Origin: Anaerolineaceae bacterium UBA6073
GTDB taxonomy: Bacteria; Chloroflexota; Anaerolineae; Anaerolineales; Anaerolineaceae
Direction of reading: 5' to 3'
DNA: 64,000 bases
Assembly: GCA_002436085.1 (NCBI GenBank)
Contig: DIXT01000021.1
Location: 685 to 64,684 of the forward strand
Part shown: in pieces, positions 25,556 through 63,222 of the stretch
How the letters are laid out: each line of letters opens with the position of its first letter
Position numbering within the stretch: the stretch's first letter is position 1
Notes under the pieces: model-generated
Databases searched by the model: none
Told to the model about the DNA's origin: nothing
Seen by the model: only the letters and a program-made list of their open reading frames with translations
Translations under genes and position numbers: made by a program

Positions 25556-25855
25556 TGGGCCCGAAGGGCACGTTCATCGGAGCGGCAGCTTGAAAAGCAC
25601 AAGCAGCTCCACTGAAGGAAAGCTTCTCTTGTGACGGTTGGGGTGCCTTAGGCAAGCTGCCTGCGAGGTTACAGAAGTCTTTTACCTTCTCCAAGGGAGA
25701 AGGTGCCCGCAGGGCGGATGAGGGTCTTGTAGTGCCCCTCATCAGTCTCGCTGCGCTCGCCAGCTTTGCCTTCGGCACGCGAGCAGAGCCTTCGGCACGC
25801 AAGCAGTCCGGGGAGAAGCTTTTTCAAACCAGCTGCCCTACGATTTTCACCGGTA

Positions 25856-25919: not shown

Positions 25920-26196
25920 TTACGTCCAATGGCATTACCCACCGCTGTAGCGGCGTGAAAAACGCATACTGCCCTACAGCTCGCAAAAGAAACCATCGCA
26001 AACCTGTTTCATTCACCCGCGCGGCTTCAGGATATAATGAGGGCAGAGAAATTCAGGAGGAGCATGCTCACCCAACCCTGCGAATTTCAACTTAGAGGCG
26101 CGCAAGTTCAAACTGGCGCGGCAGAACTTCCCTTGCCCACAAAGCAACGCGATTTCATCCTGTCCTCACCCCACCATTTACCAAAAAGGAGATCCA

Positions 26197-44654: not shown

Positions 44655-47600
44655 ATGATTACAAACACTACTACTTCCATCCCCGAAATCGGACAAATCG
44701 TCACCGTACGTCAACGTCGGTATGTTGTATCTGACATACAGCAGAGTACAATCCCGCTTGAAGTCCTTTCGAAAAATGGGGATAAACCACAGCACCTGAT
44801 TTTCCTAAGCTCAATTGAAGATGATGCACTGGGGGAGACCCTTCAGGTTATTTGGGAGATCGAACCGGACGCCAGAATAAATGATAAATCGGGATTACCC
44901 GACCCAGCAGGGTTTGATTCTCCAATAAAGTTCGACGCTTTTATAAATGCAGTTCGTTGGGGAGCGATCAGCTCAGCAGATATCCGCTCCCTTCAAGCCC
45001 CTTTCAGAAGCGGCATAACCATTGAAGATTATCAATTGGATCCGCTCGTGCGTGCGGTTCAGATGCCACGTGCGAATTTACTGGTAGCTGATGATGTGGG
45101 TCTGGGTAAAACTATCGAAGCCGGCCTCATCGTACAGGAATTACTGCTGCGCAACCGGGCCCGAACAGTGTTGATTGTCTGCCCCTCTTCCCTGCAGATC
45201 CAATGGCGCGATCAAATGCGGGATAAGTTTGGGCTTGAGTTTCGTATTGTGGATGCAGAGTTGATGCGCACTTTACGTCGCACTCGTGGATTACATACCA
45301 ATCCATGGTCGCACTTTCCACGTCTGATTACCTCGATCGATTTTCTAAAACGTGATCGCCCCATGCGATTATTCAAAGAAATCCTACCTGCCGAGGATGA
45401 GCCAAAATACCCACGCAAATTTGACATCCTCATCATTGACGAAGCCCACAATATTGCCCCGGTAGGACGCGGTAAATATGCTACGGATTCCCTTCGAACG
45501 TTGGCCATTCGCACGATTGCTCCAAATTTCGAACATAAATTATTCTTAACCGCCACGCCTCACAACGGTTACAAAGAATCTTTTACCGCCTTGCTAGAAT
45601 TACTGGACAATCAGCGCTTTGCTCGTGGCATTGAGCCAGATCGACAGCAACTCCAGTTGGTGATGGTCCGGCGCATGAAAAGCGAACTGCCTCCCCAGTT
45701 TGATGGCACCCCTCGCTTCCCGAAACGTTCCATTCAGGCGATTGAAGTTTCTTACTCGGATGAGGAAAAGAAAGCTCACGCCTGGCTGCAGGAGTACACT
45801 GAACTGCGCCAGCAGAACCCAAAAGATGCCGTTGAGCGTTATGCAACCGAATTTATGATGAAGATGCTCAAGAAGCGGTTGTTTTCTTCGCCAGCTGCGT
45901 TCTTGCTCACCCTTGAACAACATTTAAAGACGCTTGAGAAGACGAAGACCCTTTCTGATCAGCATAAACCAGTCTTTGGCATTTTACGCCAGCAGCTTGA
46001 AGCCGCGGAGGAAGATGATCCACAAGAGACCTCTGAAGAACCAGGTGAAGATGTGATCTTGACAGCCACCCGCCTTTTCCGCCCGGTTACCCCCCGCGAA
46101 AAGGAATTATTAGATAACCTGCTGGCCTGGGCGAAGCGCTCCGCAGCCCGTCCAGACAGCAAAATCCAGGAACTACTGAAATGGTTGAAGACCAACATCA
46201 AACCCAATGGGGTCTGGTCCAATGAACGGGTAGTCATTTTCACTGAATACCGTGCAACGTTAAATTCACTACAGGAATTGCTCGCCATGGAAGGCTTTAC
46301 AGGTGATAACCGCTTGATGACCCTTTATGGCGGAATGGATGATGAAAAACGCGAGAGCGTCAAAGCTGCATTCCAGGCCCGACCAGAGATCAGCCCGGTG
46401 CGGATTTTATTGGCCACCGATGCGGCTTCAGAGGGTATTGACCTGCAAAACCATTGCCACTGTATTATCCACACGGAAATACCCTGGAATCCGAACCGCC
46501 TGGAACAGCGCAATGGCCGCCTTGACCGTCATGGGCAAACAAAGGATGTGTTGGTTCACCATTTTGTAACCAAAGGATTCCGCGATCAGGAGCAGAATGC
46601 ATGGGATGTGCGCGGACAGGGACTGGAAGCCGATCTGGAATTCCTTTTTCGGGCAGTGAAGAAGGTTGAACAAATTCGTGAAGACCTGGGTAAGGTTGGT
46701 CCCGTAATTGCCCTGCAGGTGGAAGAAGCCATGCTGGGCAAACGCCGCCATCTGGATACTGCTCAGGCAGAACGCGATAATGAACCGGTAAGGCGGATGC
46801 TGAAATTCGAGCGCGACTTGCGCGCTCAAATTGCCCGTCATATGGAGCAGCTTCAAGAAACACGCCAGACCATGAACTTTTCACCGGAAAACACCGAGAT
46901 CATCGTGGAAACCGCTTTGGAACTGGCAGGTCAGCGTGGATTAATCCCGGCGAAACTGCCTAAACTTCCTGGTGAGCAGCATCCGATCAACGGCACACCA
47001 ATCTATGAACTTCCGGCATTGACCGGCAGTTGGGCGGCTTGCGCAGAGGGGTTGGCGCACCCGCATACGGGCAAGATCCGCCCGATTACTTTTGACCATA
47101 ATGTAGTCGATGGGCGCGATGACGTGGTGCTGGCGCATCTCAACCACCGTCTGGTGCAGATGTCCTTGCGCCTGCTGCGCGCCGAGGTTTGGTCGCCGGC
47201 CAGCAAGAAGGGTTTGCACCGCCTGACTGCGCGGTTGGTTGCGGATACTGCACTCACCGACCCGGCAGTCATTGCTTTTGCACGGTTGGTTGTGACCGGC
47301 GGCGACCAGAACCGGCTGCACGAAGAGATTATTTCAACCGGAGGGTTTTTAAAGGAAGGTAAGTTCAACCGGATGAACGTCGGCCAGGTGACAAATGCCC
47401 TACAGGCCGCCACCGACCAGGAACCCAATGCAGCCATGCAGCAGCGCTTATTGGATCTCTATGCTCGCATGATTCCTTCTCTATCTTCTGCATTGGAAGC
47501 GCGCTGCAAAGACCGTATGGATGGCATCCAGAAATTGCTGACAGAACGCTCTGAGTTTGAAGCCAGAAGTATCGAAAGCGTCCTCAATGAGCTGGCCAGT

Positions 47601-47834
47601 TCCATCCGCCAGGAACTGGATGAGCCTGAAGTACTGCAGCTGGAATTGTTTACCAGCGAGGAAAAGGAACAATTGAATCGCAACATGGACGCTCTACGGC
47701 GAAGGCTGGCAGCTATTCCGGGCGAAATTGAGCAGGAAAAAATGGTGATTCAAAAAAGGTTCTCGGACCCGCAGATACGTATGTTTCCGGTTGCAATCAT
47801 GTTTCTCGTTCCCGAGAAATATTCACGCGGATAA
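44655..47834 (+). CDS. drmD: SNF2-family helicase, DISARM class 1 DrmD-like
   Basis: Motif I LLVADDVGLGKTIEAG, motif II ILIIDEAHNIAP, C-terminal helicase LLATDAASEGIDLQ and NPNRLEQRNGRLDRHGQ. First large gene of the operon. Confidence 0.8.
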   Translation: MITNTTTSIPEIGQIVTVRQRRYVVSDIQQSTIPLEVLSKNGDKPQHLIFLSSIEDDALGETLQVIWEIEPDARINDKSGLPDPAGFDSPIKFDAFINAVRWGAISSADIRSLQAPFRSGITIEDYQLDPLVRAVQMPRANLLVADDVGLGKTIEAGLIVQELLLRNRARTVLIVCPSSLQIQWRDQMRDKFGLEFRIVDAELMRTLRRTRGLHTNPWSHFPRLITSIDFLKRDRPMRLFKEILPAEDEPKYPRKFDILIIDEAHNIAPVGRGKYATDSLRTLAIRTIAPNFEHKLFLTATPHNGYKESFTALLELLDNQRFARGIEPDRQQLQLVMVRRMKSELPPQFDGTPRFPKRSIQAIEVSYSDEEKKAHAWLQEYTELRQQNPKDAVERYATEFMMKMLKKRLFSSPAAFLLTLEQHLKTLEKTKTLSDQHKPVFGILRQQLEAAEEDDPQETSEEPGEDVILTATRLFRPVTPREKELLDNLLAWAKRSAARPDSKIQELLKWLKTNIKPNGVWSNERVVIFTEYRATLNSLQELLAMEGFTGDNRLMTLYGGMDDEKRESVKAAFQARPEISPVRILLATDAASEGIDLQNHCHCIIHTEIPWNPNRLEQRNGRLDRHGQTKDVLVHHFVTKGFRDQEQNAWDVRGQGLEADLEFLFRAVKKVEQIREDLGKVGPVIALQVEEAMLGKRRHLDTAQAERDNEPVRRMLKFERDLRAQIARHMEQLQETRQTMNFSPENTEIIVETALELAGQRGLIPAKLPKLPGEQHPINGTPIYELPALTGSWAACAEGLAHPHTGKIRPITFDHNVVDGRDDVVLAHLNHRLVQMSLRLLRAEVWSPASKKGLHRLTARLVADTALTDPAVIAFARLVVTGGDQNRLHEEIISTGGFLKEGKFNRMNVGQVTNALQAATDQEPNAAMQQRLLDLYARMIPSLSSALEARCKDRMDGIQKLLTERSEFEARSIESVLNELASSIRQELDEPEVLQLELFTSEEKEQLNRNMDALRRRLAAIPGEIEQEKMVIQKRFSDPQIRMFPVAIMFLVPEKYSRG

Positions 47835-49412: not shown

Positions 49413-52400
49413 ATGTCCATCGCCCGACACCACAACGAATGGCTTTCTCTGATTGAAATATCCGGCCCGTTTTTGAGCCTGCCGGTGCTGATGCGCACCT
49501 TCCCGCAGGGATTGGACGCGCTTGACCGCGATGGCCTGGCGGAACTGCGCCTGGCATATGAGGAATGGCTGGATGACCAAAACAGCCTGCGCCCCTCACC
49601 GGCTATTCATTCGGTGTGGGTACGTTATGTGCTCGAACACGTTCTCGGCTTTGAAAAAAGCCATCTGCTCGAGGGTCCGGCGATACCGGCGACCCTGCAA
49701 GCCTTTGTTGCCGAACAGGGCGAGACCCTGCGCCCCGACCTCGTTGTATCTAATTCCCCTCTCCTCCCAGGAGAGGGGTTAGGGGTGAGGTTACTGGTTC
49801 AGGTTTGCCCCATGACCCAGGGGCTGGAAGAATCCATGCTGAATCACCGCTGGAAAGCCTCGCCGGCCATGCGCATGCTCGAACTGCTGCGCGCTACTGG
49901 TGTTTCGTTGGGTCTGGTGACCAACGGCGAGCAGTGGATGCTGGTCAACGCGCCTAAGGGCGAGACCAGCGCGTTTGTCTCCTGGTATGCCGCCCTGTGG
50001 TTGGAAGAGCCGCTCACTTTGCGGGCTTTCTCTTCATTACTAGGTGCAACACGTTTCTTCTCGGTGGCGGACGAGGATACCCTGGAAGGCATGCTCAAGG
50101 ACAGCGTCAACGAGCAGCAGGAAGTCACCGACCAGTTGGGCTACCAGGTGCGCCGGGCGGTGGAGGTATTGATCCGCGCCATTGATAAGGCCGACCAGGA
50201 CTGCGGTCGAACGCTTTTGAAGGACATTCCGGAAAAAGACCTGTACGAGGCTGCCCTGACGGTGATGATGCGTCTTGTTTTCCTCTTTTCCGCCGAAGAG
50301 CGCGGACTGTTGCTGCTGGGCGACCCGCTTTACGATCAGAACTATGCGGTCTCTACCCTGCGCGCCCAGTTGCGTGAAACCGCCGATCAGCAGGGTGAAG
50401 AGGTGCTGGAGCGCCGCTTCGATGCCTGGTGCCGACTGCTGGCCACCTTCCGTGCCGTGCATGACGGCATTCACCACGACCGTCTGAACCTGCCGGCTTA
50501 CGGCGGCAGCCTGTTTGATCCTGATCGTTACCCATTTTTGGAAGGAAGAATTGCCCTCATCCCTAACCCTTATCCCGAGAGGGGAAGGGAATCCCCTCTC
50601 CCCGCCGCTTCGGCGCTCCGTAGGGAGCCGGGAGAGGGCAAGGGTGAGGGTCCGCTTCCCATCTCGAACCGCACGGTGCTGCATCTGTTGGAAGCGCTGC
50701 AGGTGCTGCGTGTCAAGGTTCCGGGCGGTGGACCCGCCGAAGCCCGTCGGCTCTCCTTCCGCGCGCTGGATGTGGAGCAGATCGGTCACGTCTATGAAGG
50801 CTTGCTGGATCATATTGCCGTGCGCGCCAGCGAACCCGTGCTGGGGCTGGCTGGCACACGCGAGAAAGAACCGGAGCTATCGCTGCCCACTCTGCGGGTG
50901 GAAGAAGCCAAAGGCGAGAAGAATTTTCTTGCCTATCTTAAAGAGCAAACCGGGCGGTCAGAAAACGCGCTGCGCAAAGCCCTGCAGGAAAGACCGGACG
51001 TGTTCACCAACCAGCACTTGCTCATTGCCTGTAACAACGATGCAAAGATGCTGGAGAGGGTGGCGCCGTACGCCGGTCTGCTGCGCGAGGATGACTTTGG
51101 CTACCCAGCGGTTTTCTTACCGGGCAGCGTGTACGTCACCGCCGGAGCCACGCGCCGCGCCACCGGCACACACTACACTCCACGCAGTCTGACCGAGCCG
51201 ATTGTGCAGCACACCCTCGAGCCGCTGGTTTATACCGGCCCAGCCGAGGGGCTGCCCAAAGAACAGTGGACGCTCAAATCTCCCGCGGAACTGCTGGATC
51301 TGAAGGTTTGCGACATGGCCATGGGTTCTGCCGGTTTCCTGGTGCAGGTGATCCGCTACCTCTCGGAGCGGTTGGTAGAAGCCTGGGATCAAATCTCCCC
51401 AGAACCATTTGCTAAATCTCAACCTTCGGAAATATCTGGAATTCCTGTAGAAGTCCCTCACCCCAGCCCTCTCCCAGCGGGAGGGGTGGTAGCTAAGGAA
51501 GCATTATCGCCTGAAATGCTGGAGCGGGTGCGGGAACTGCGTAAGAACGCAACGGAGGCGGAAGCTTTTCTATGGGAATTGTTGCGCGACCGCCAATTGG
51601 CTGGTTTCAAATTCCGCCGCCAGCATCCCCTGGGCGGAACCATTCTTGATTTTTACTGCCATGAAGTCCACCTGGCCGTTGAGATCGACGGCGCCGTCCA
51701 CAAGGAACCGGAACAGGCCCAGCACGACGCCGAACGCTCCGCCTATCTGAACGAACAGGGAATCCGGGTCATTCGCTTCTGGAACCACGAAGTCCTGAAT
51801 CAAACAGATGCCGTTCTAAAGAAAATTCTGAAAGAGTTTCAGTCGTCTGCTTCTCCAGTGCTCCCTTCTCCCAGTGGGAGAAGGGCTGGGGATGAGGGCC
51901 GCTTCCTCCGCATCACCCCCGAAGGCCAGCCCGCCAGCGGCAAACCCAATGAGATCATTATTCCCAAGGACGATGAAGAGCGCCTGGTGCTGGCCCGCCG
52001 CCTGGTGGCCGATCGCTGCATCTACGGGGTGGACAAGAACCCTCTGGCGGTGGAGATTGCCAAGCTGTCGATCTGGTTAACCACCATGGACAAGGGCCGG
52101 CCCTTCACCTTTCTGGATCACGCCCTCAAATGCGGCGATTCGCTGGTGGGTGCGGATGAAGACATGTACCGCAAATGGGCCTACAGCCTGAAAGGCGCCC
52201 AATTCACACTTTACCTGACCACGCTGGAGGAATTTACCGCAGCCGCCCGGCAGAAACGCAGGGAACTGGAAAGCTTCACCGTGCTGGACGTGCGCGATGC
52301 CGAACACAAAGCCGAACTGTTGAAAGAAGCCGACGCCGCCATGGCGCGCGTGAAACTGGGCTGCGACCTGCTGGTGGGTGTGCGTCTGCTGGGATTGAAA

Positions 52401-54200
52401 CCCGCCGAACAGGAAACCCTGCTCTCACATTTATTGTGGGATTACGTAGCCGGCCTGCCCATGGATACCCCCGACGCCCAGCGCGCCTTGCACGCCGCGC
52501 GCAAAGAGCACGCTTTTCACTGGCCGTTTGAATTTCCTGAGGTGTTCGAAAAGAAAGGATTTAACGCTTTTGTTGGAAATCCCCCATTTATGGGTGGAAC
52601 AAAAATCTCAACTTTTTTTGGAAGTCTATATGCTGATTATCTAAAAAGTTTCTACCTAAGTTTTACAGGTAATGCAGATCTCTGTGCTTTATTTTTCCTC
52701 CGCACATTTCATAATATATCAAAAAAAGGAACGTTAGGATTAATTGCCACTAAAACTATTTCTCAAGGTAATACGTCAGAAACCGGCCTAGGAGAAATTT
52801 TACTGAATGGCGGGATAATTTTCAACGCGAATTCATCAACTTCTTGGCCAGGTAGTGCAGCCGTGATCGTTAGCATAATTTTCATTACAGATAATTCGTA
52901 TTCTGGTGAAATAGTATTAAACGAGAAAAAAGTAGGAAAGATCTCGCATTTACTCTCTGAGGTTGTATTTGATTGGGAGCCGAAGGAATTAAGTGCTAAT
53001 CAAGGAATTAGCTTTAATGGTTCGAAATTAGATGGAATCGGATTTGTTATTGAACCTAATGAGGCAATCGATTTATTGTCTAAATCACCAAAAAACAAAG
53101 ATATCCTTTATCCCTTTTTAGGTGGAGCTGACCTCAATAATCAACCCGATCAAAAATCTACGAGATGGGTAATCAATTTCTCCGAATTACCATATGAAAA
53201 GGCGAAAGAATATCCGGATTGTTTACAAATAGTTCAAGAAAGAGTTTTTCCTTCTCGTCAAAACCATGGAGAAAAGAGAACTAGAGAAAATTGGTGGCAA
53301 TTTACTCGGGTTCGTAATGAACTTTATCAGTCATTACATGGTTTACAAAAAACAATAGTAATATCCCAGGCAACAAAGTACATTCAACCAAGCTTGGTTG
53401 ATACGGGAATTATTTTTGATCAAGCTTTAGTTATATTTGCCAGTCAATCATATGGTTTATTTGCAATACTTAATTCTACAATACACTCATCGTGGGCATT
53501 GGAATACCAGACCTCTTTGGGAACTACTCCTTACTATATTCCCACTAAAGCTTTTTTGCCTTTCTGTTTTCCTCAGACACTCGTTACTCTAGATAAAATT
53601 GGTAAAGAATATCATGAGTTTCGATGCCAGATAATGCTTTCTCATGTGGAGGGTCTAACCGCCTCCTACAACCGTTTTCACAACCCCAAAGAAAAATCTA
53701 CCAACATTGCCCATCTGCGCGAGCTGCATGTGGAAATGGACAATGCCGTGGCTGCCGCCTACGGCTGGAGCGATCTCGATCTGGGGCACGGTTTTCACGA
53801 GACGCCGCAGGGGGTGCGCTACACCATCTCTGAAGCCGCCCGCAGGGAGGTGCTGGCGCGCCTCTTGCAGTTGAACCATGAACGTTATGAGGAAGAAGTC
53901 CGCCAGGGGCTGCACGAAAAAGATAAAAAGAAAGCCCAAAAAGAAGAGAAATCTGCCCGGCAAAAGCCCAAAAAACTCACCCAGCCTGAAGGGCAGATGA
54001 ACCTGCTGGCTGAGCCGGAGGTTGCCGATGTAGGGGAGACCGCCGAAGCTCTGCCCCCTACGCCCACGTCCGAGATCGGCAGCTGGGACCGCTGCAAGTG
54101 CCTGGCTTGCGACAAGACCGTGATGGGCTTTTCCATCGCGGAGCACACCCAGTCCGAGCATGGGGGCAAGGATCCAGGGTATAGGAAGATGGGGGGATAA
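49413..54200 (+). CDS. drmMI: giant N6-adenine DNA methyltransferase (type IIG / Eco57I-like), DISARM DrmMI-like, with nested DUF559 domain
   Basis: 1595-aa uninterrupted ORF. Motif IV FVGNPPFMGG (about 52570-52600). N-terminal helical region typical of large defence methylases. Internal DUF559 block at about 51500-51840. Confidence 0.8.
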   Translation: MSIARHHNEWLSLIEISGPFLSLPVLMRTFPQGLDALDRDGLAELRLAYEEWLDDQNSLRPSPAIHSVWVRYVLEHVLGFEKSHLLEGPAIPATLQAFVAEQGETLRPDLVVSNSPLLPGEGLGVRLLVQVCPMTQGLEESMLNHRWKASPAMRMLELLRATGVSLGLVTNGEQWMLVNAPKGETSAFVSWYAALWLEEPLTLRAFSSLLGATRFFSVADEDTLEGMLKDSVNEQQEVTDQLGYQVRRAVEVLIRAIDKADQDCGRTLLKDIPEKDLYEAALTVMMRLVFLFSAEERGLLLLGDPLYDQNYAVSTLRAQLRETADQQGEEVLERRFDAWCRLLATFRAVHDGIHHDRLNLPAYGGSLFDPDRYPFLEGRIALIPNPYPERGRESPLPAASALRREPGEGKGEGPLPISNRTVLHLLEALQVLRVKVPGGGPAEARRLSFRALDVEQIGHVYEGLLDHIAVRASEPVLGLAGTREKEPELSLPTLRVEEAKGEKNFLAYLKEQTGRSENALRKALQERPDVFTNQHLLIACNNDAKMLERVAPYAGLLREDDFGYPAVFLPGSVYVTAGATRRATGTHYTPRSLTEPIVQHTLEPLVYTGPAEGLPKEQWTLKSPAELLDLKVCDMAMGSAGFLVQVIRYLSERLVEAWDQISPEPFAKSQPSEISGIPVEVPHPSPLPAGGVVAKEALSPEMLERVRELRKNATEAEAFLWELLRDRQLAGFKFRRQHPLGGTILDFYCHEVHLAVEIDGAVHKEPEQAQHDAERSAYLNEQGIRVIRFWNHEVLNQTDAVLKKILKEFQSSASPVLPSPSGRRAGDEGRFLRITPEGQPASGKPNEIIIPKDDEERLVLARRLVADRCIYGVDKNPLAVEIAKLSIWLTTMDKGRPFTFLDHALKCGDSLVGADEDMYRKWAYSLKGAQFTLYLTTLEEFTAAARQKRRELESFTVLDVRDAEHKAELLKEADAAMARVKLGCDLLVGVRLLGLKPAEQETLLSHLLWDYVAGLPMDTPDAQRALHAARKEHAFHWPFEFPEVFEKKGFNAFVGNPPFMGGTKISTFFGSLYADYLKSFYLSFTGNADLCALFFLRTFHNISKKGTLGLIATKTISQGNTSETGLGEILLNGGIIFNANSSTSWPGSAAVIVSIIFITDNSYSGEIVLNEKKVGKISHLLSEVVFDWEPKELSANQGISFNGSKLDGIGFVIEPNEAIDLLSKSPKNKDILYPFLGGADLNNQPDQKSTRWVINFSELPYEKAKEYPDCLQIVQERVFPSRQNHGEKRTRENWWQFTRVRNELYQSLHGLQKTIVISQATKYIQPSLVDTGIIFDQALVIFASQSYGLFAILNSTIHSSWALEYQTSLGTTPYYIPTKAFLPFCFPQTLVTLDKIGKEYHEFRCQIMLSHVEGLTASYNRFHNPKEKSTNIAHLRELHVEMDNAVAAAYGWSDLDLGHGFHETPQGVRYTISEAARREVLARLLQLNHERYEEEVRQGLHEKDKKKAQKEEKSARQKPKKLTQPEGQMNLLAEPEVADVGETAEALPPTPTSEIGSWDRCKCLACDKTVMGFSIAEHTQSEHGGKDPGYRKMGG
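51455..51900 (+). other. in-frame insertion inside drmMI: DUF559 (Vsr-like endonuclease) domain bracketed by palindromic GC-rich elements
   Basis: Translation EAEAFLWELLRDRQLAGFKFRRQHPLGGTILDFYCHEVHLAVEIDGAVHKEPEQAQHDAERSAYLNEQGIRVIRFWNHEV matches the DUF559 consensus. It is flanked by hairpins ccctctccc-agc-gggagggg (51467-51486) and cccttctccc-agt-gggagaaggg (51863-51885). Confidence 0.75.
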
Positions 54201-57841: not shown

Positions 57842-60800
57842 ATGTCAGATGAATTAATACCACCTTCCGCAAATCAAATTCGTTCAGAACTTCAAGATCT
57901 CATCCTGCGCGACCTGCTCGGCCCAGCCGGCGGGGAAGAAGAAATTATCGATGAGTCCTACGTGCGCGACCGCTACATCCTCGGCCTGCTGGCGCCGCGC
58001 GGACAGAGCGTCATCCCCGAAGAGGAAGAAGATCTGGCTTTTACCGATGGAGATGGTGAAGAAGGCACGGTAGAACCCACCACCATCCGCAATTCCACCC
58101 TACTGCCCTCCTCCATGGGGTTGACCTTTACCGTGGATGCCTCTGCCACTGCTATCCAGATCAAAGCCCGTTGGGGCCGCTATGAACGCATTGCAAGCGA
58201 GGAACTGGGTCTTGAGCTGGAGAAACCCCATCCGGTGTGGAAGCGCATGCCGGTGGAAATGCTCTCCCCTGCCATAGTGCTCACACCCGGACGGATGAAG
58301 CGCTGGGTTCCAAACCCGAATTACCCCGACGTCTATGTGGATGGCTTATTTCGTCAACGCAATGGCGAATGGGTGATCACCCTCTTTTTGGTGAACGCCC
58401 AGGAAGAACCCAAAAAGCTGCGCGATACGGCCTGGCTGTTCCAACCCGAGCTGACGGTTAGTGCACCGGATGGGGCAGCTATCTTCCGCCAGCGGCGTAC
58501 TTTGCGTAACTGCCATGCGGATGAAGAAGAGGCCGCCATGGCAATGCTCTACCGTGAGCAGGTGGAATTCGCCGTCGGCCACGGCGTGGCCGTGCATGCT
58601 GAGCTGGCGCCCGGTGCGGTTGACCGGGCTGTCTCGTTGAAAACCATCATTGCTCCGGCATTTGAATTGCCGCGTGTCACTCCGCCCACCAGCGCGGAGA
58701 TTCCCGGCCTGCAGGGGCTGGTGCTGGATATGAAAACGCTTTCCGGATTGGCAGACAGCGAATTGGCCAAAGCACTGAGTCCCCTGACTGCCGCCTATGC
58801 AGACTGGATTGAGGGACTGGAAAAACAGTTGGCGCATAGTTCGGCCGATCTGGAGCCGTATCACACCACCGCCCTGCAAACCATCGATACCTGCAAACAA
58901 AATCTAAAGCGCATTCAGGCTGGCATTGATCTCCTTGCAGTCAGCCCGCAGGCAGCCGAAGCCTTCCGTTTTGCCAACAACGCCATGGCGCTGCAGCGCA
59001 TTCACACCCTGCACTCCGAATCGATCCGCCGTGAAGAGAGCACAACACTGGAAGAACTGGATATTGAAAAGAACCGCACCTGGTATCCTTTCCAGTTGGC
59101 CTTCATCCTGCTAAATCTGCCTGGACTTACCGATCCGCACTCTGCGGAGCGCAGCCATCCTACTCAGGCTATTGCGGATGTACTCTGGTTCCCCACCGGC
59201 GGCGGAAAAACTGAAGCCTATCTGGGCTTGACCGCCTATACCCTGGCCATGCGCCGTTTGCAGGGCATGATTGGCGGCTATGACGGCAGCGCCGGCGTAG
59301 CGGTGCTAATGCGTTACACCCTGCGCCTGCTCACCTTGCAGCAGTTTCAACGTGCCGCTGCTCTGATATGCGCCTGCGAAAGCATCCGCCGGGAGGATGT
59401 GGCAAAATGGGGCGCTGAACCCTTCCGCATTGGATTGTGGGTGGGTCAGCGCAGCACCCCCAACTGGAATGCCGACAGCGATGAAATCGTTAAAGAATAC
59501 CGCAAAACCGGCTATTTCCGCTCCACCGCCACCGGCGGCTCGGGATCACCGCATCAATTAACCAACTGCCCCTGGTGCGGCGCGCCGATCAACCCGGGCA
59601 CTGACATTGTTGTCGAGACCTACAAACACGGTTCCTGCCGCACAATCGTTTATTGCCCATCCAACGCCTGCATTTTTAATCAAAAGAATGCCAAACGGGA
59701 GGGCTTACCGATTTTGGTGGTGGATGAAGAAGTTTACCGCCGCCTGCCCTCGCTGCTGATTGCCACCGTGGATAAATTTGCCCAGATGCCCTGGAAGGGC
59801 GAAGTGCAGATGCTGTTTGGCCGGGTGAATGGTTATTGCAGCCGGCACGGCTACCGTTCTCCCGATATCGAGGATAAGAACACTCACCCGGCGGATAAAG
59901 TTTTCGGACTGCCGGCAGCAGAAACCGAAGAGAAGAGTTGTCTGCGTCCCCCGGATCTGATCATTCAGGACGAATTGCACCTCATCAATGGCCCCCTGGG
60001 TACCCTGGTCGGGTTGTATGAAACCGCGGTCGATAACCTGTGCAATTGGGAATTGGATGGCAAGACCGTGCGGCCGAAAGTGATTGCTTCCTCTGCAACG
60101 ATCCGCAAAGCGCCGGCGCAAATCAACAGCCTTTATTTGCGCCAGATCAACATCTTCCCGCCGAATGGCTTGCTGATCAAAGATAATTTCTTCTCCCGCC
60201 AACGCACACCGGATGAGACTAATCCCGGAAGGGTTTATTTGGGTATTTGTGCACCAGGCTCGCGCCTGAAAGTGGTGATGATCCGCTCCTATGTCGCAGT
60301 GCTATCCGCTGCGCAGAAGTTATATGAAAAATATGGCGGGCTGGTGGATCCTTATATGACCCTGGTTGGTTATTTTAACGCCATGCGTGACCTGGGCGGT
60401 TTGCGCAGGGTATTGGATGATGCCATTCGCACCCGTTTGCGACACATGGAAAAGCGGGGATTGTCCAACCGTAATCTGGATACATACAGCATCGCCGAAT
60501 TAACTTCGCGCATCGGTGCGACGGATATTCCGGAAATTCTGGATCGGCTGGGCGCGGCCTTTGACCCCCAGCGGGATGACGAACGCAAGAAAAAGCGCAA
60601 AGCCGGCGAGAAAGTTGCTTCTTCCAGTTACCCCATCGATACCTTGCTGGCGACGAACATGATTTCGGTTGGTGTGGATGTGCCCCGCCTGGGACTAATG
60701 GTGGTAGCCGGACAGCCCAAGTACACCAGTGAATATATTCAGGCAACCAGCCGTATTGGTCGTCGTTTCCCAGGTCTGGTGGTAACGGTTTATAACTGGG

Positions 60801-61354
60801 CTCGTCCCAGGGATTTGAGCCATTACGAGCGGTTTGAGCATTACCATTCAACCCTATACCAGCAGGTTGAAGCATTATCCGTGACGCCGTTCTCACCGCG
60901 TGCCATCGATCGAGGATTGACTGCACTGTTGGTTTCTTTCCTGCGCCTTTATGGATTTGATTTCAATAGTAATGAAAGCGCTGAAAAACTGACCCGAGAT
61001 CACCCGACAGTGAAATTAGCCATCGATGAGATTTGCCGGAGAGCAGGATTGGTAACAGGCAGCATACAAGTCGAGCAAGACGTGCGATCTGAACTGAACA
61101 GCCGCATTGATCTCTGGCTTGCACGGGCTGCCAAGCTGGCAGCAGGCGGCTCCAAATTGGGCTATAAAGGCAAAGGTGATGGACGAACATTGGCATTACT
61201 GGGAACGCCCAACAAACAAGATCGGGATGTTTTCACTTGCCTGACCTCTTTACGGGATGTCGAACCTTCTGTAAATCTTGTGTTGAATAATTATGAAATC
61301 GAGACTCCTGCCAACAGTGTTGGAGTAGATCAAGAACAGGAGGCCGCCCAATGA
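57842..61354 (+). CDS. drmA: DExH superfamily-2 helicase, DISARM DrmA-like
   Basis: Motif I WFPTGGGKTEAYLGL, motif II LIIQDELHLINGPLGT, motif VI YIQATSRIGRRFPG. 1170 aa. Overlaps the following DUF1998 gene by 4 nt. Confidence 0.8.
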   Translation: MSDELIPPSANQIRSELQDLILRDLLGPAGGEEEIIDESYVRDRYILGLLAPRGQSVIPEEEEDLAFTDGDGEEGTVEPTTIRNSTLLPSSMGLTFTVDASATAIQIKARWGRYERIASEELGLELEKPHPVWKRMPVEMLSPAIVLTPGRMKRWVPNPNYPDVYVDGLFRQRNGEWVITLFLVNAQEEPKKLRDTAWLFQPELTVSAPDGAAIFRQRRTLRNCHADEEEAAMAMLYREQVEFAVGHGVAVHAELAPGAVDRAVSLKTIIAPAFELPRVTPPTSAEIPGLQGLVLDMKTLSGLADSELAKALSPLTAAYADWIEGLEKQLAHSSADLEPYHTTALQTIDTCKQNLKRIQAGIDLLAVSPQAAEAFRFANNAMALQRIHTLHSESIRREESTTLEELDIEKNRTWYPFQLAFILLNLPGLTDPHSAERSHPTQAIADVLWFPTGGGKTEAYLGLTAYTLAMRRLQGMIGGYDGSAGVAVLMRYTLRLLTLQQFQRAAALICACESIRREDVAKWGAEPFRIGLWVGQRSTPNWNADSDEIVKEYRKTGYFRSTATGGSGSPHQLTNCPWCGAPINPGTDIVVETYKHGSCRTIVYCPSNACIFNQKNAKREGLPILVVDEEVYRRLPSLLIATVDKFAQMPWKGEVQMLFGRVNGYCSRHGYRSPDIEDKNTHPADKVFGLPAAETEEKSCLRPPDLIIQDELHLINGPLGTLVGLYETAVDNLCNWELDGKTVRPKVIASSATIRKAPAQINSLYLRQINIFPPNGLLIKDNFFSRQRTPDETNPGRVYLGICAPGSRLKVVMIRSYVAVLSAAQKLYEKYGGLVDPYMTLVGYFNAMRDLGGLRRVLDDAIRTRLRHMEKRGLSNRNLDTYSIAELTSRIGATDIPEILDRLGAAFDPQRDDERKKKRKAGEKVASSSYPIDTLLATNMISVGVDVPRLGLMVVAGQPKYTSEYIQATSRIGRRFPGLVVTVYNWARPRDLSHYERFEHYHSTLYQQVEALSVTPFSPRAIDRGLTALLVSFLRLYGFDFNSNESAEKLTRDHPTVKLAIDEICRRAGLVTGSIQVEQDVRSELNSRIDLWLARAAKLAAGGSKLGYKGKGDGRTLALLGTPNKQDRDVFTCLTSLRDVEPSVNLVLNNYEIETPANSVGVDQEQEAAQ

Positions 61355-63222
61355 CCAGACCCAATAATATTAAAGTGGGAGAACTTAATCCATCCCAACT
61401 GCTCTATACCTATGGAGTCGGGGCAATTGTCGATTTGCCACATTTATCCGCCATCGTTTCCGGATTGGATGATTGGCCGGTAGATCCCGAATATGTTCGT
61501 GAAATCCAGGAAGAACGCCTGCTTTTTGCCCTGAAAGGTGAATTGGGGAATCAAGTGCAGCGACTGCTATCCCTGCCCAGCGTTCCAGATGTAGGCGGAA
61601 AACCTAATCCCTTTGATAAAGAAGCACATATCGGCGTGCCAGTCAGTACCTTCCCACAGTGGATGGTTTGCCCCTCATGTCAGGTGCTCGCTCCCACCCA
61701 GTCCGAGTTATTTGAACTGAAGGTGGATTATTATCATCCTGACCGAACGCATTATGAACATGTCAATTGTCAACGCGCAACCAAGCCAACAGCGTTGCCG
61801 GCGCGTTTCCTCGTGTGCTGTGAAAACGGCCATCTGGATGACTTCCCCTGGGTGGAATATGTTCATCATTTTGACCCGACCAAATATGATCACAAAAGCC
61901 TGACTTTGTCAGAATTTGGGCCATCTGGTGAGGCTCGTGATCTCTATGTGGAGTGCAATATTTGCGGTGCAAAACGGCAACTGGCTGAAGCTTTCGGACG
62001 TGAGAACCGTGAGAAAATGCCCATTTGCAAGGGTCGCCGGCCGCATCTCCATGATTACGATCCGGATGGTTGTGAACTCTATGTGCGTGCTATCTTGCTG
62101 GGTGCCAGTAACCTCTGGTTTCCATTTGTCCTCAACACAATTTCCATCCCTACCACCGCAGATAAGTTGGCCAATTTGGTTGCGGAAAATTGGGGCGAGT
62201 TAAGCCGCGTAGAAAAGGTTGATGAATTGGCATACATGGAGAAATGGGGGAAACTGAAAGCATTTGCAGAGTATGCTTTGTCTGATTTATGGGATGCCAT
62301 TAGTAAAAGAAAATCGCGCGAGACATCAAGCGAGAATGATGAACACCCTAATTTGCTAACCCCAGAATGGGCTGCGTTTACGACCCCTGCATCACAAAGC
62401 CAAACCCCTGATTTCAGATTGAAATCTGTAAATCCTCCCTCAAAGTATAAGGATGTATTTTCACAGGTCGTTCTGGTTGAGCGGTTGAGGGAAGTCAGAG
62501 CATTGGCTGGATTCACCCGGATCGACTCTCCTGGAGAAATGGCGGAAAGCGACGAGGAAGAAATTCAGGCTGTTTCACCCATCTCAAGAAAAAAGCCAAA
62601 TTGGATTCCAGCGATTGAAGTGCGAGGTGAAGGGATTTTCCTCCAATTTAGGGAATCAGAAATTCTCAAGTGGTTGGCTCAACCTGCGGTAAAAAACTGG
62701 GAAGCGATGTTCTTCCAGGCACATATCGAATGGCGCAAGAACCGCATGATCGAAAATCCAGAAGCAAATTTTCCTGGTTTGCGGTATGTTTTGTTGCACT
62801 CTTTTAGCCATGCGCTCATGCGCCAATTTGCCATGGAATGCGGATACACCCAGGCCAGTATTCGAGAACGGATCTATTCAAATAATCCAGGCCAGCCGGG
62901 TGATCCGATGGCTGGAATCCTTCTTTATACATCCGCTCCAGATTCGGAAGGTACACTGGGTGGTCTGGTAAGTTTGGGAGAACCCCATAATTTAGAGAGA
63001 CACATTGATTCCGCTCTTGAAGCGTGTGGTTTATGTGCATCTGACCCTACTTGTGCAGAACACATGCCCGGTTATGGTGCTTCAACGGTTCATGCGGCCG
63101 CCTGTCATTCTTGTCTCTTCTCGCCCGAAACTTCTTGCGAAAGAGGTAATCGCTATCTTGACCGTTCAGTACTGGTTTCAACCGTCAGCCATGATAATCA
63201 CCGGTTTTTCAGCCATGAATGA
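61351..63222 (+). CDS. drmB: DUF1998 domain protein, DISARM DrmB-like
   Basis: LLHSFSHALMRQ block, GTLGGLVSLG, and the terminal Cys cluster CGLCASDPTCAEH..AACHSCLF are typical of DUF1998. 623 aa. Confidence 0.8.
   Translation: MTRPNNIKVGELNPSQLLYTYGVGAIVDLPHLSAIVSGLDDWPVDPEYVREIQEERLLFALKGELGNQVQRLLSLPSVPDVGGKPNPFDKEAHIGVPVSTFPQWMVCPSCQVLAPTQSELFELKVDYYHPDRTHYEHVNCQRATKPTALPARFLVCCENGHLDDFPWVEYVHHFDPTKYDHKSLTLSEFGPSGEARDLYVECNICGAKRQLAEAFGRENREKMPICKGRRPHLHDYDPDGCELYVRAILLGASNLWFPFVLNTISIPTTADKLANLVAENWGELSRVEKVDELAYMEKWGKLKAFAEYALSDLWDAISKRKSRETSSENDEHPNLLTPEWAAFTTPASQSQTPDFRLKSVNPPSKYKDVFSQVVLVERLREVRALAGFTRIDSPGEMAESDEEEIQAVSPISRKKPNWIPAIEVRGEGIFLQFRESEILKWLAQPAVKNWEAMFFQAHIEWRKNRMIENPEANFPGLRYVLLHSFSHALMRQFAMECGYTQASIRERIYSNNPGQPGDPMAGILLYTSAPDSEGTLGGLVSLGEPHNLERHIDSALEACGLCASDPTCAEHMPGYGASTVHAAACHSCLFSPETSCERGNRYLDRSVLVSTVSHDNHRFFSHE

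What the first reader, a model, noticed from the sequence alone, without database searches (positions are those of the whole stretch)
51455..51900. DUF559 (Vsr-like) endonuclease domain inserted in frame inside the DISARM methyltransferase
Within the 1595-aa drmMI ORF, a block of about 115 aa matches the DUF559 endonuclease pattern closely: AEAFLWELLRDRQLAGFKFRRQHPLGGTILDFYCHEVHLAVEIDGAVHKEPEQ..DAERSAYLNEQGIRVIRFWNHEV. Both sides carry GC-rich palindromes (51467-51486 and 51863-51885) that translate to PSPLPAGG and LPSPSGRRAGDEG. DUF559 normally occurs as a small stand-alone ORF. Here it is nested in a methyltransferase without breaking the frame. It could be a domain-sized mobile insertion tolerated in a surface loop. 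It could also give the methylase a nuclease moiety, producing a restriction-modification fusion within DISARM.
Basis: partly seen in the sequence, partly recalled or inferred. Interest (0 to 1): 0.75.

Follow-up and report, generated by a model that had tools for sequence, protein, structure and literature searches.

The report
Mobile nuclease cassette inside DISARM methylase
A small Vsr-like nuclease module, bracketed by two inverted copies of the widespread "BoxC" triplex-forming DNA repeat, sits in frame in a loop of an anti-phage DNA methylase; the same cassette occurs inside many other restriction-modification genes, so the nuclease may be the missing enzyme partner of these orphan repeats.

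Summary
Residues 704-809 of the 1595-aa DrmMI ORF (49413-54200) match Pfam DUF559 (E=5e-36). Of the 120 best DrmMI homologues, 111 lack the segment, including the closest ones. AlphaFold2 predicts an independent domain held by two disordered linkers.

The flanking "palindromes" are more than palindromes. They are inverted copies of the known BoxC/PIT/TMECO intrastrand-triplex repeat and form ~36-nt terminal inverted repeats around a 444-bp in-frame cassette (51455-51898). drmMI also carries a cargo-less BoxC doublet and a solo unit in two other loops.

In unrelated metagenomes, BoxC units are 24-fold denser within 200 bp of DUF559 genes than further away. The same cassette lies in frame inside HsdS, HsdR, type IIG/ISP enzymes, other DNA methylases and MetRS.

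Inside DrmMI the domain traces to one old insertion. It is under purifying selection (dN/dS 0.06-0.20). It is present or absent between near-identical alleles with recombination tracts, and one copy has a decayed active site. DrmC is retained.

In E. coli, TMECO no. 9 lies 168 nt from ycjD, and ycjD-positive genomes carry more BoxC copies.

Best reading: a selfish, homing-like BoxC-DUF559 cassette tolerated in a permissive loop. A domesticated nuclease role is not excluded.

The parts
49413..54200 (+). drmMI, the class 1 DISARM N6-adenine methyltransferase (1595 aa) and host gene of the cassette
   Evidence: ORF. PADLOC DrmMI PDLC02643, 1645 bits. Pfam Eco57I, MmeI_Mtase, MmeI_TRD, MmeI_N and N6_Mtase.
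51455..51898 (+). BoxC-DUF559-BoxC cassette: 444 bp (148 codons), in frame, absent from most homologues
   Evidence: Alignment A1. Terminal inverted repeats. DNA alignment with insert-less alleles.
51455..51490 (-). Left BoxC/TM unit (C-rich strand on top); encodes PHPSPLPAGG and forms the left terminal inverted repeat
   Evidence: nhmmer unit model hit at 51454-51490 on the minus strand, 24.1 bits. Inverted-repeat pairs I1, I9 and I11.
51522..51839 (+). DUF559 (Vsr-like PD-(D/E)XK) nuclease core, aa 704-809. The family-invariant residues D746, E757, D759, H763, D772 and R775 are intact.
   Evidence: Pfam E=5e-36. 3HRL E=2.5e-26. AF2 pLDDT 88-95. Foldseek 3HRL TM 0.89 and I-Bth0305I TM 0.81. 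Invariant columns, positions.
51861..51898 (+). Right BoxC/TM unit, CCCTTCTCCC-AGT-GGGAGAAGGG-CT-GGGGATGAGGG; encodes LPSPSGRRAGDEG and forms the right terminal inverted repeat
   Evidence: nhmmer 31.3 bits. Perfect 11-nt hairpin I6. Fits the TMECO architecture of PMC4666352.
50554..50650 (.). Cargo-less inverted BoxC doublet (MITE/REPIN-like) in frame in a second DrmMI loop (aa ~381-413). The left unit is 50554-50589 (minus orientation). The right unit is 50593-50650 and has an enlarged first loop.
   Evidence: Sequence. nhmmer hit at 50553-50592, 30.5 bits. An insertion relative to most homologues and shared with P0002 and P0003.
49753..49790 (+). Solo BoxC unit (type A, TTA loop) in frame in a third DrmMI loop; encodes PLLPGEGLGVR
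   Evidence: Sequence. nhmmer 29.3 bits. Shared with P0001-P0003 only.
25679..25724 (+). Weaker BoxC-like unit in an intergenic region; the only unit in the window outside drmMI
   Evidence: nhmmer 14.3 bits. Sequence.
44655..47834 (+). drmD (SNF2 helicase), DISARM context
   Evidence: PADLOC DrmD, 1391 bits. Pfam SNF2-rel_dom and Helicase_C.
57842..61354 (+). drmA, DISARM context
   Evidence: PADLOC DrmA, 1043 bits.
61351..63222 (+). drmB (DUF1998/MZB), DISARM context
   Evidence: PADLOC DrmB, 288 bits. Pfam MZB.
63215..64000 (+). drmC (PLD nuclease); the 5' part runs off the window. The system keeps its usual candidate nuclease.
   Evidence: Pfam PLDc_2, E=2.6e-17. Same gene order in L198.

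Best explanation
The segment is a 444-bp cassette: a Vsr-like DUF559 nuclease gene bracketed by two inverted copies of the BoxC/PIT/TMECO intrastrand-triplex repeat. It lies in frame in the loop between methyltransferase motif I and the next conserved block of DrmMI.

Shown:
- It is an insertion relative to the DrmMI family.
- It folds as an independent domain. The BoxC-encoded Pro/Gly/Ser-rich peptides act as disordered linkers.
- Cassettes of this kind occur as small ORFs and as in-frame inserts in many unrelated host genes.
- Within DrmMI all copies trace to one old insertion, which is kept under purifying selection.
- That insertion is gained or lost between otherwise near-identical alleles by recombination in the conserved flanks.

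Inferred:
- The cassette is a selfish element. The nuclease nicks or cuts BoxC-containing or empty target DNA, and recombinational repair copies the cassette, in the manner of homing.
- Because the cassette reads through in frame and brings its own linkers, it needs no intron or intein to spare the host protein.
- DUF559 is the enzyme partner that maintains or spreads the far more numerous solo and doublet BoxC units, much as RAYT does for REP/REPIN.
- DISARM function neither requires the domain nor is destroyed by it.
For: Insertion and boundaries
- 111 of the 120 best homologues lack the segment.
- The terminal inverted repeats occur only here in the window; the expected count is 0.00.
- AF2 gives the DUF559 domain pLDDT ~90, with linkers at model residues 106-136 and 255-271 below 50.

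Identity of the repeats
- The units match the TMECO pattern and Table 1 sequences of PMC4666352.
- A scan that specified only the G-arm and tail recovered the complementary C-arm in nearly all genome hits, across many phyla.

Association of BoxC with DUF559
- Unit density is 4.26/kb within 200 bp of DUF559 cores against 0.18/kb elsewhere in 50 metagenome loci.
- 25 of the 50 loci are bracketed on both sides, almost always in inverted orientation.
- TMECO no. 9 in E. coli K-12 lies 168 nt downstream of ycjD, the annotated DUF559 gene examined.
- ycjD-positive E. coli genomes have a median of 7 further BoxC places. 55% of ycjD-negative genomes have none, and the rest have a median of 2.

Mobility between hosts
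- In-frame cassettes occur in HsdR, an N6_N4 methylase, a type ISP enzyme, MetRS (twice), HsdS (26 representatives) and Eco57I/MmeI-type enzymes.
- The type IIG hosts fall into at least 5 separate DUF559 groups.

Dynamics within drmMI
- P0004 (with cassette) and P0014 (without) are 100% identical over the first 1650 nt, then ~90% around the insert.
- The window is 98% and 97% identical to insert-less P0017 in the 120 bp on either side of the polymorphic segment.
- Three states occur at the site: empty, solo BoxC and full cassette.
- P0005 has lost H763, D772 and R775.
- dN/dS is 0.06-0.20.

Fold
- The nearest solved relative after 3HRL is the catalytic domain of the homing endonuclease I-Bth0305I (TM 0.81; PMC3239194).

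DISARM context
- drmC is retained.
Against: - No target-site duplication was found. The occupied and empty alleles also differ in the adjacent loop sequence, so no clean insertion junction is seen.
- No close copy (above 62% identity) of this cassette lineage was found outside drmMI.
- All ten DrmMI-borne domains are each other's nearest neighbours. Their synonymous divergence matches that of the host. Long vertical co-inheritance with occasional loss therefore explains the DrmMI data without any active homing.
- At least 50 of 70 long hosts are R-M proteins. A purely selfish model does not predict this bias, although clustering of hypervariable specificity proteins at 50% identity inflates the count.
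- The domain is only ~110 aa and lacks the extra DNA-binding domains that I-Bth0305I uses.
- Nuclease activity and substrate are untested.
- Only 5 of 120 randomly hit BoxC units have a DUF559 nearby.
- The E. coli correlation is not corrected for phylogeny.
Confidence: 0.6

Rival explanations
1. Domesticated nuclease module. R-M and defence enzymes (DrmMI, HsdS, HsdR, type IIG/ISP enzymes, methylases) have repeatedly captured the DUF559 cassette because a Vsr-like nickase tethered to a methylase or specificity module adds a useful activity. That activity could be cutting unmethylated target DNA or processing methylation-related lesions. In that case this DrmMI is a true restriction-modification fusion within DISARM.
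For: - The domain is under purifying selection, with dS up to saturation.
- Catalytic-type residues are intact in 9 of 10 DrmMI copies.
- About 70% of long hosts among the closest relatives are R-M proteins, from several independent insertions.
- The Caulobacter DUF559 protein VsrA causes an SOS response when its partner methyltransferase ScmA is absent (PMC12907096).
- DrmC is dispensable for DISARM defence, so the system's effector nuclease is still unknown (bioRxiv 10.1101/2021.12.28.474362).
Against: - 111 of 120 DrmMI homologues work without the domain.
- drmC is retained in cassette-bearing loci.
- P0005 keeps an intact DrmMI with a decayed DUF559 active site.
- The same cassette sits in MetRS and other housekeeping enzymes, where an R-M role makes no sense.
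- The domain is tied to the host only by disordered linkers, and no predicted interface was seen.
- The cassette always comes with BoxC repeats, which a functional fusion does not need.
Confidence: 0.2
2. Non-mobile lineage-specific domain. The insertion happened once in an ancestor of a DrmMI subclade and has since been inherited vertically and deleted repeatedly. The BoxC repeats are incidental hot-spot insertions in a permissive loop and have no mechanistic link to DUF559.
For: - The DrmMI-borne domains are monophyletic and have co-diverged with the host.
- No recent copies were found elsewhere.
- BoxC units also land in the same three DrmMI loops without DUF559.
Against: - BoxC units are 24-fold enriched next to DUF559 genes in unrelated genomes and bracket them in inverted orientation.
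- The consensus of 70 embedded homologues keeps BoxC peptides on both sides.
- ycjD and BoxC are linked in E. coli.
- There are multiple independent host genes.
Confidence: 0.1
3. Phase-variation switch. The two inverted BoxC units mediate inversion of the DUF559 segment and turn DrmMI off and on.
For: - The inverted cassette has stop codons in all three frames, so inversion would truncate DrmMI.
- "DUF559 domain-containing protein" is 14-fold enriched among CDSs flagged as predicted programmed-inversion targets, i.e. CDSs with inverted repeats (PMC9881135).
Against: - The repeats are short (~36 nt) and imperfect (~80% identity, with indels).
- No invertase gene was seen among the genes annotated around drmMI.
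- No inverted-orientation allele was seen among the 10 cassette-bearing homologues.
- Purifying selection on the DUF559 coding sequence is not explained by a spacer role.
Confidence: 0.04
4. Inert passenger: a dead relic of a mobile element, merely tolerated and decaying.
For: One homologue (P0005) has lost three invariant residues.
Against: - dN/dS is 0.06-0.20 over dS 0.37 to above 2, the same range as the host's conserved segments.
- All family-invariant residues are intact in the window copy.
Confidence: 0.04

Closest known systems
BoxC / PIT (potential intrastrand triplex) / TMECO repeats (Bachellier; Hoyne & Maher 2000; Holder et al. 2015, PMC4666352)
   Same: The architecture and near-identical sequence match: a C-rich arm, a 3-6-nt loop, a G-rich arm, a 2-3-nt loop (TTA, CCG or CTG) and a second G-rich arm. 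Singlets and inverted doublets both occur. The repeats are widespread and are associated with variable loci.
   Different: In E. coli they were described as always intergenic, and the authors "never found" mobility genes nearby. Here they lie inside a coding sequence, are translated as linkers, and bracket a nuclease gene. The right-hand unit has 10-11-nt arms rather than 9.
DUF559 / YcjD-like Vsr-related PD-(D/E)XK nucleases (PF04480; PDB 3HRL)
   Same: There is a strong profile and structural match, and the invariant residues are kept.
   Different: The domain is not a free-standing ~110-130-aa protein. It has no start or stop codon of its own and is expressed as an internal domain of a 1595-aa methyltransferase.
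EDxHD (Vsr-like) homing endonucleases such as I-Bth0305I (PMC3239194; PMC2677866)
   Same: The catalytic fold matches (TM 0.81). The host site is conserved. Presence/absence polymorphism comes with diverged flanking tracts.
   Different: There is no group I intron or intein and no additional DNA-binding domains. The element is translated through instead of spliced out. Homing activity is not shown.
Rickettsia palindromic elements and other in-frame MITE insertions (review PMC10969869)
   Same: Palindromic elements with terminal inverted repeats are inserted in frame into unrelated genes and add a tolerated peptide. The solo unit and the doublet in drmMI are of this kind.
   Different: The full cassette carries a folded enzyme domain under purifying selection, not just a short peptide. 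The repeats occur across phyla rather than in one genus.
REP / REPIN-RAYT systems
   Same: An enzyme gene is flanked by inverted copies of a short palindromic repeat that is otherwise dispersed as singlets and doublets. Gene presence and repeat number co-vary among strains. The REPIN-RAYT side of the comparison rests on my own knowledge.
   Different: The enzyme is a PD-(D/E)XK nuclease, not an HUH Y1 transposase. A nuclease of this fold would not be expected to rejoin DNA (inference from general knowledge of the fold), so spread would depend on host recombination or repair. The cassette also inserts into coding sequences.
Inteins carrying homing endonucleases
   Same: Both are in-frame parasites of conserved enzymes, with a nested nuclease domain.
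   Different: No Hint or intein domain hit was found. The cassette junction residues, PHP... and ...DEG|RF, do not resemble the conserved intein splice junctions as I recall them. The insert therefore stays in the mature protein.
Type IIG/IIL R-M fusions (MmeI-like) and class 1 DISARM DrmMI
   Same: The host protein has MmeI_N, MmeI_Mtase and MmeI_TRD matches and sits in a drmD-drmMI-drmA-drmB-drmC operon.
   Different: The extra nuclease domain is a DUF559 nested inside the methyltransferase domain, not the N-terminal MmeI-type nuclease. It is absent from most DrmMI.

Membership tests
DUF559 (PF04480) | Profile match above the curated cut-off | tested here: met
   E=5e-36, 123.3 bits against a cut-off of 20.6; aa 704-809 cover profile positions 5-108 of 109.
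DUF559 (PF04480) | Vsr-like alpha/beta nuclease fold | tested here: met
   AF2 domain pLDDT ~90. Foldseek: 3HRL TM 0.89, 3R3P TM 0.81, 1VSR TM 0.54.
DUF559 (PF04480) | Family-invariant residues (E, W, F, RQ, DF, E-x-D-G, H, D, R) | tested here: met
   The invariant columns of 70 homologues are all present in the window: D746, E757, D759, H763, D772, R775. They are lost in P0005.
DUF559 (PF04480) | Nuclease activity | not testable with these tools
The papers found in the library searches report no biochemically defined substrate for the family.
Class 1 DISARM DrmMI | DrmMI profile match and N6-adenine methyltransferase motifs | tested here: met
   PADLOC PDLC02643, 1645 bits. Motif I CDMAMGSAGFLV and motif IV GNPPF are present and invariant in the alignment.
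Class 1 DISARM DrmMI | Operon with drmD, drmA, drmB and drmC | tested here: met
   DrmD, DrmA and DrmB. DrmC PLDc_2 at 63215-64000. An ATPase + DUF4435 pair is intercalated.
BoxC / PIT / TMECO repeat | Pattern CCCTCNCCC-N3-6-GGGNGAGGG-N3-GGGNGAGGG, with one mismatch allowed | tested here: met
   The solo unit and the left unit of the doublet have the type A TTA loop. The right unit of the cassette is a variant with 10-11-nt arms and a 2-nt second loop.
BoxC / PIT / TMECO repeat | Dispersed, multi-copy, conserved across genomes | tested here: met
E. coli has a median of 10 places per genome. The window has 6 units.
BoxC / PIT / TMECO repeat | Intergenic location (as described for E. coli) | tested here: not met
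   5 of the 6 window units lie inside drmMI. 21% of genome units lie in long open frames.
BoxC / PIT / TMECO repeat | Forms an intrastrand triplex | not testable with these tools
   The third strand, read antiparallel, gives G*G, A*A and T*A triplets. That is inference from the sequence only.
Homing endonuclease gene (EDxHD/Vsr-like) | Presence/absence polymorphism at one site of a conserved host gene, with co-converted flanks | tested here: met
   P0004 and P0014 are 100% identical for 1650 nt, then ~90% around the insert. The window and P0017 are 98%/97% identical in the immediate flanks. General recombination would give the same pattern.
Homing endonuclease gene (EDxHD/Vsr-like) | Housed in a self-splicing intron or intein, or free-standing between genes | tested here: not met
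   No Rfam intron. No Hint or intein Pfam hit. The insert is translated in frame.
Homing endonuclease gene (EDxHD/Vsr-like) | Cleaves the empty allele and is copied by repair | not testable with these tools
   Needs cleavage and homing assays.
MITE / RPE-like in-frame palindromic element | Terminal inverted repeats | tested here: met
   ~36-nt imperfect terminal inverted repeats.
MITE / RPE-like in-frame palindromic element | Target-site duplication | tested here: not met
   No direct repeat at the junctions. The empty alleles differ in the neighbouring loop sequence.
MITE / RPE-like in-frame palindromic element | Non-autonomous, without coding capacity | tested here: not met
   The cassette carries a folded nuclease. 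Only the doublet (50554-50650) and the solo unit (49753-49790) fit this feature.
REP/REPIN-RAYT | Enzyme gene flanked by inverted repeat units that are also dispersed as singlets and doublets | tested here: met
   Repeat number co-varies with gene presence in E. coli.
REP/REPIN-RAYT | HUH Y1 transposase | tested here: not met
   The enzyme is a DUF559 PD-(D/E)XK nuclease.
Type IIG R-M fusion (MmeI-like) | Active N-terminal PD-ExK nuclease domain | tested here: inconclusive
   The MmeI_N match covers only profile positions 83-180 of 181. The catalytic part is not aligned.

The most novel reading that the evidence does not exclude
DUF559 nucleases are the dedicated enzyme partners of the BoxC/PIT/TMECO triplex-forming repeats. 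No mobility or maintenance function has been found for these repeats since the 1990s. Together they form a new class of selfish element: a nuclease gene between inverted triplex repeats, plus many cargo-less singlets and doublets. The element can invade coding sequences in frame without an intron or intein, because the repeats translate into flexible linkers. It has preferentially colonised restriction-modification and defence genes such as this DrmMI.
Probability: 0.35. Interest if true: 0.85.

Novelty: new variant of a known kind. Interest (0 to 1): 0.72.

Why it matters
Four points follow if the reading is right.

1. It gives a concrete, testable candidate for two long-standing orphans at once: the function of the very large DUF559/YcjD family (26,180 cluster representatives at E<=1e-3), and the origin and spread of BoxC/PIT/TMECO repeats. 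Holder et al. 2015 "never found" any associated mobility activity for these repeats and linked them to genomic instability.

2. It describes a way for a nuclease-bearing element to live inside essential or addictive genes without splicing. The element reads through in frame and supplies its own disordered linkers.

3. It matters for defence-system annotation. Cassette-bearing DrmMI proteins are named "endonuclease domain-containing protein" or "very-short-patch-repair endonuclease" in public records. Stand-alone DUF559 ORFs are named as type I R/M subunits.

4. BoxC units and cassettes cluster in three loops of DrmMI, a gene whose specificity half is mosaic between near-identical alleles. They may therefore take part in the diversification of defence genes.

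Tried and rejected
- First TIR pattern: a guess with an indel error found nothing. A gapped pattern fixed it.
- Rfam: no RNA family matches the region, so the repeats are not a known structured RNA.
- Intein or intron housing: rejected. There is no Hint domain and no intron.
- Recent transposition of this exact lineage: the metagenome scan found copies above 62% identity only inside drmMI, so no recent jump is documented.
- Target-site duplication or a clean empty site: not found, because the loop differs between occupied and empty alleles.
- "DUF559 replaces DrmC": rejected, since drmC is present.
- [quoted passage not shown]: partly rejected. The HsdS copies are mostly one group, but the type IIG hosts fall into at least 5 groups.
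- Degenerate N-terminal MmeI-type nuclease motif in DrmMI: I considered claiming this but dropped it, because the Pfam match does not cover the catalytic part.
- Tree building: an NJ tree on 283 sequences timed out and was replaced by nearest-neighbour and average-linkage analysis.
- Literature: searches for DUF559, BoxC/triplex, YcjD and DrmMI found no paper that links DUF559 to BoxC or reports DUF559 inside DrmMI. Subscription-only papers are not covered.


Full report
**1. What is in the sequence**

The ORF 49413-54200 (+) encodes a 1595-aa protein. PADLOC identifies it as DrmMI: PDLC02643 scores 1645 bits in two stretches, the first ending at aa 662. Pfam finds Eco57I, MmeI_Mtase, MmeI_TRD, MmeI_N and N6_Mtase. 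It also finds DUF559 at aa 704-809 with E=5e-36.

The gene lies in a class 1 DISARM operon:
- drmD, 44655-47834;
- a 512-aa ORF, 47871-49409;
- drmMI;
- an intercalated AAA-ATPase plus DUF4435 pair;
- drmA, 57842-61354;
- drmB, 61351-63222;
- the start of a PLD-type drmC at 63215.

**2. The segment is an insertion**

Only 9 of the 120 best DrmMI homologues carry DUF559. The closest relatives (~90% identity, 1403-1410 aa, Anaerolineaceae/Bellilinea MAGs) have the short loop EAWDILNPEGSNPD|LRITPEG at that position. The insert lies between motif I (CDMAMGSAGFLV) with its helix and the next conserved block (YGVDKNPLAVEIAKLS).

An AlphaFold2 model of aa 560-1171 puts the DUF559 part at pLDDT ~90 as a separate alpha/beta domain. 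The two connecting stretches, model residues 106-136 and 255-271, are below 50.

Foldseek finds 3HRL, a DUF559 protein, at TM 0.89. Next comes the catalytic domain of the Vsr-like homing endonuclease I-Bth0305I at TM 0.81, then Vsr itself at TM 0.54.

**3. The flanking palindromes are terminal inverted repeats made of BoxC/TMECO units**

The two palindromes are inverted copies of one another and extend outward to ~36 nt. Their core occurs only twice in the window, on opposite strands around the DUF559. The expected count in shuffles is 0.00. The element 51455-51898 is 444 bp (148 codons).

The same unit occurs three more times in drmMI:
- a solo copy at 49753-49790, which encodes PLLPGEGLGVR;
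- an inverted doublet without cargo at 50554-50650.

Both are insertions relative to most homologues. One weaker copy is intergenic, at 25679-25724.

The unit has a C-rich arm, a short loop, a G-rich arm, a TTA/CCG/CTG loop and a second G-rich arm. This is the BoxC/PIT/TMECO intrastrand-triplex repeat. Compare the pattern and Table 1 of Holder et al. 2015 (PMC4666352).

That paper reports 23 copies in E. coli K-12, all intergenic, including five inverted doublets. It also reports triplex formation in vitro and an association with variable loci. It states explicitly that no transposase, integrase or other mobility function was ever found nearby.

**4. BoxC and DUF559 go together far beyond this gene**

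Small DUF559 ORFs from many phyla carry the same BoxC-encoded peptides at their ends, for example LPSPSGRRAGDEG and PHPSPLPEGEG.

I built a nucleotide profile of the unit and ran it on 50 non-redundant metagenome loci that encode relatives of the domain. It found 4.26 units per kb within 200 bp of the DUF559 core, against 0.18 per kb elsewhere. 33 loci have a unit upstream, 31 downstream and 25 on both sides, almost always inverted.

The reverse sampling used a genome-collection scan that specified only the G-arm and tail. Nearly all hits carried the unspecified complementary arm. Only 5 of the 120 had a DUF559 within 250 bp, each bracketed by two units. Solo units therefore vastly outnumber cassettes, as REPs outnumber RAYT genes or MITEs outnumber their autonomous partners.

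In E. coli K-12, ycjD, the annotated DUF559 gene I examined, ends in a degenerate unit. TMECO no. 9 of Holder's Table 1 lies 168 nt downstream of it.

Across 5426 complete E. coli genomes, ycjD is present in 3377. In an evenly spread sample, ycjD-positive genomes had a median of 7 further BoxC places. Of the 2049 ycjD-negative genomes, 1127 had no BoxC match at all, and the sampled remainder had a median of 2 (p=4e-5, not corrected for phylogeny).

**5. The cassette invades many coding sequences in frame**

In the metagenome and genome loci the same BoxC-DUF559-BoxC arrangement lies inside:
- a type I HsdR, where it splits HSDR_N;
- an N6_N4 methylase;
- a type ISP enzyme;
- methionyl-tRNA synthetase in two betaproteobacteria, in the linker before the C-terminal tRNA-binding domain.

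An exhaustive HMMER search gave 26,180 cluster representatives. Of the best 150, 70 are at least 330 aa long, and 41 have at least 100 aa on both sides of the domain.

Their Pfam census is:

| Family | Representatives |
|---|---|
| Methylase_S (HsdS) | 26 |
| Eco57I | 10 |
| MmeI_Mtase | 9 |
| N6_Mtase | 6 |
| N6_N4_Mtase | 5 |
| Type_ISP_C | 3 |
| HSDR_N | 2 |

Single housekeeping hosts also occur: IGPS, Maf, EPSP synthase, OMP decarboxylase, GidB and FtsJ.

The consensus of these 70 proteins keeps BoxC peptides on both sides of the domain.

Nearest-neighbour analysis shows one origin for the DrmMI copies, mostly one group for the HsdS copies, and at least five separate groups for the type IIG hosts.

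The bias towards R-M proteins is real but inflated. Hypervariable specificity proteins split into many 50%-identity clusters.

**6. History inside drmMI**

All ten DrmMI-borne domains are each other's nearest neighbours.

The domain's dN/dS is 0.06-0.20, with dS from 0.37 to above 2. The flanking conserved host segments show the same ranges. The insertion is therefore old and the domain is under purifying selection. It is not a dead passenger.

Presence nevertheless does not track host-allele relatedness:
- P0004 (with cassette) and P0014 (without) are 100% identical over the first 1650 nt of the gene. They then drop to ~90% for a few hundred bases on each side of the insert.
- The window allele is 98% and 97% identical to insert-less P0017 in the 120 bp on either side of the polymorphic segment, but only 82-90% further away.
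- The boundaries are GAAGCCTGGGA | ... | CTCCGCATCACCCC. The empty allele has a different 33-nt loop, and there is no target-site duplication.

This is the signature of exchange by homologous recombination in the conserved flanks. It is compatible with homing but also with ordinary allelic recombination.

The site exists in three states: empty, solo BoxC and full cassette. P0039, P0046, P0050, P0107 and P0016 have a solo BoxC. P0039 shares the right junction GEG|RFLQITPEG with occupied alleles.

BoxC-type peptides occur in 23 of the 120 DrmMI homologues and cluster at three loops.

One copy, P0005, has lost three family-invariant residues (H763, D772, R775) while its DrmMI stays open.

**7. 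Mechanism: shown and inferred**

Shown: the anatomy, the insertion status, the independent fold, selection on the domain, allele-level gain and loss, multiple hosts, and the statistical link between BoxC and DUF559.

Inferred (my best reading, confidence 0.6 overall):
- The cassette is a selfish element.
- Its nuclease acts on BoxC-type or empty-site DNA.
- It is copied by recombinational repair.
- It survives in coding regions because it reads through in frame and the BoxC units translate into Pro/Gly/Ser-rich flexible linkers.
- DUF559 also maintains the dispersed BoxC population.

The main rival (0.2) is domestication: R-M enzymes profit from a tethered Vsr-like nickase.
- For it: purifying selection, the R-M host bias, and the Caulobacter DUF559 protein VsrA, which triggers SOS when its partner methylase is missing (PMC12907096).
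- Against it: most DrmMI lack the domain, drmC is retained, P0005 has a decayed site, MetRS is also a host, and BoxC is always present.

Minor rivals:
- a non-mobile lineage-specific domain (0.1);
- an inversion switch (0.04). The inverted cassette has stops in all frames, and DUF559 CDSs are enriched among inverted-repeat-bearing CDSs (PMC9881135);
- an inert relic (0.04).

**8. Comparison with what is known, and novelty**

The parts are known: DrmMI/DISARM, DUF559, BoxC/TMECO, in-frame palindromic elements such as RPEs (PMC10969869), Vsr-like homing endonucleases (PMC3239194, PMC2677866) and REP-RAYT.

In the searchable literature I could not find any of the following:
- the combination of a DUF559 gene bracketed by inverted BoxC units;
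- its in-frame colonisation of R-M and defence genes and some housekeeping genes;
- the DUF559-BoxC co-occurrence.

I therefore rate it a new variant of a known kind. It could become a new class of element if the nuclease-repeat partnership is confirmed experimentally.

The library lacks most subscription journals, so prior description cannot be excluded.

Noticed in passing
window 54281-55309 and 56868-57809: An AAA-ATPase (AAA_15/PtuA/GajA-like) and a DUF4435/AriB-like protein are intercalated between drmMI and drmA, forming an embedded OLD/PARIS-like pair inside the DISARM operon. An insert-less relative (L002) also has an AAA/SMC-type ATPase plus a second ORF at this position. Other relatives carry different cargo there: GmrSD in L196/L197 and a helicase pair in L198.
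   Followed up: partly
window 52600-53650 (drmMI TRD half): The target-recognition half of drmMI is only 45-60% identical at the DNA level between alleles that are 90-100% identical elsewhere. The mosaic points to swapping of the specificity domain.
   Followed up: partly
window 25175-26196: A 1-kb intergenic region holds a ~70-nt direct repeat (about 25493-25560 and 25857-25925). Each copy is a long hairpin (GGGGCGAAGCATC...GATGCTTCGCCC). A BoxC-like unit lies next to it.
   Followed up: no
window ~10450-10494 and ~13492-13536: An identical 50-nt context, GCTGCAGGAATATTTCCGGTGCCAAAAATGCGGAAGGGGGTGCGGCAATC, appears twice about 3 kb apart, so a segment is duplicated.
   Followed up: no
window 47871-49409: The 512-aa ORF between drmD and drmMI has no Pfam hit in my scan and only a weak PADLOC PDC-M36A hit. 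Its orthologues in L071, L197 and L198 carry DUF8370/DUF8371. Other relatives have a 282-aa, 321-aa or HATPase_c_3 protein at this position.
   Followed up: no
L008 1-300 (metagenome Ga0101944_10003810): BoxC units form a tandem array with a 42-nt period, translated as a proline-rich repeat within a 964-aa open frame that also contains DUF559.
   Followed up: no
L075 2-2161 and L099 1777-4515: Two betaproteobacterial MetRS genes carry the BoxC-DUF559-BoxC cassette in frame between the anticodon-binding domain and the C-terminal tRNA-binding domain. Their DUF559 domains are not each other's nearest relatives.
   Followed up: partly
L195 3700-4261 (E. coli K-12 ycjD region): ycjD ends in a degenerate BoxC arm that overlaps its stop codon. 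About 40 nt of its 3' end is duplicated downstream, followed by a degenerate unit and then the perfect TMECO no. 9. ycjD is absent from 38% of complete E. coli genomes.
   Followed up: partly
P0034, P0069, P0006, P0061 (public annotations): Cassette-bearing DrmMI proteins are named "endonuclease domain-containing protein" or "very-short-patch-repair endonuclease". Small DUF559 ORFs are named type I restriction R/M subunits or adenine methyltransferase. The nested domain is propagating wrong names.
   Followed up: no
P0004, P0006, P0034 (left end of the cassette): These alleles have two tandem left-hand BoxC units (for example PHPNPLPYWQGVSQADPHPNPLPQGEG), whereas the window has one. P0034 has in addition a long Ser/Pro-rich stretch after the domain.
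   Followed up: no
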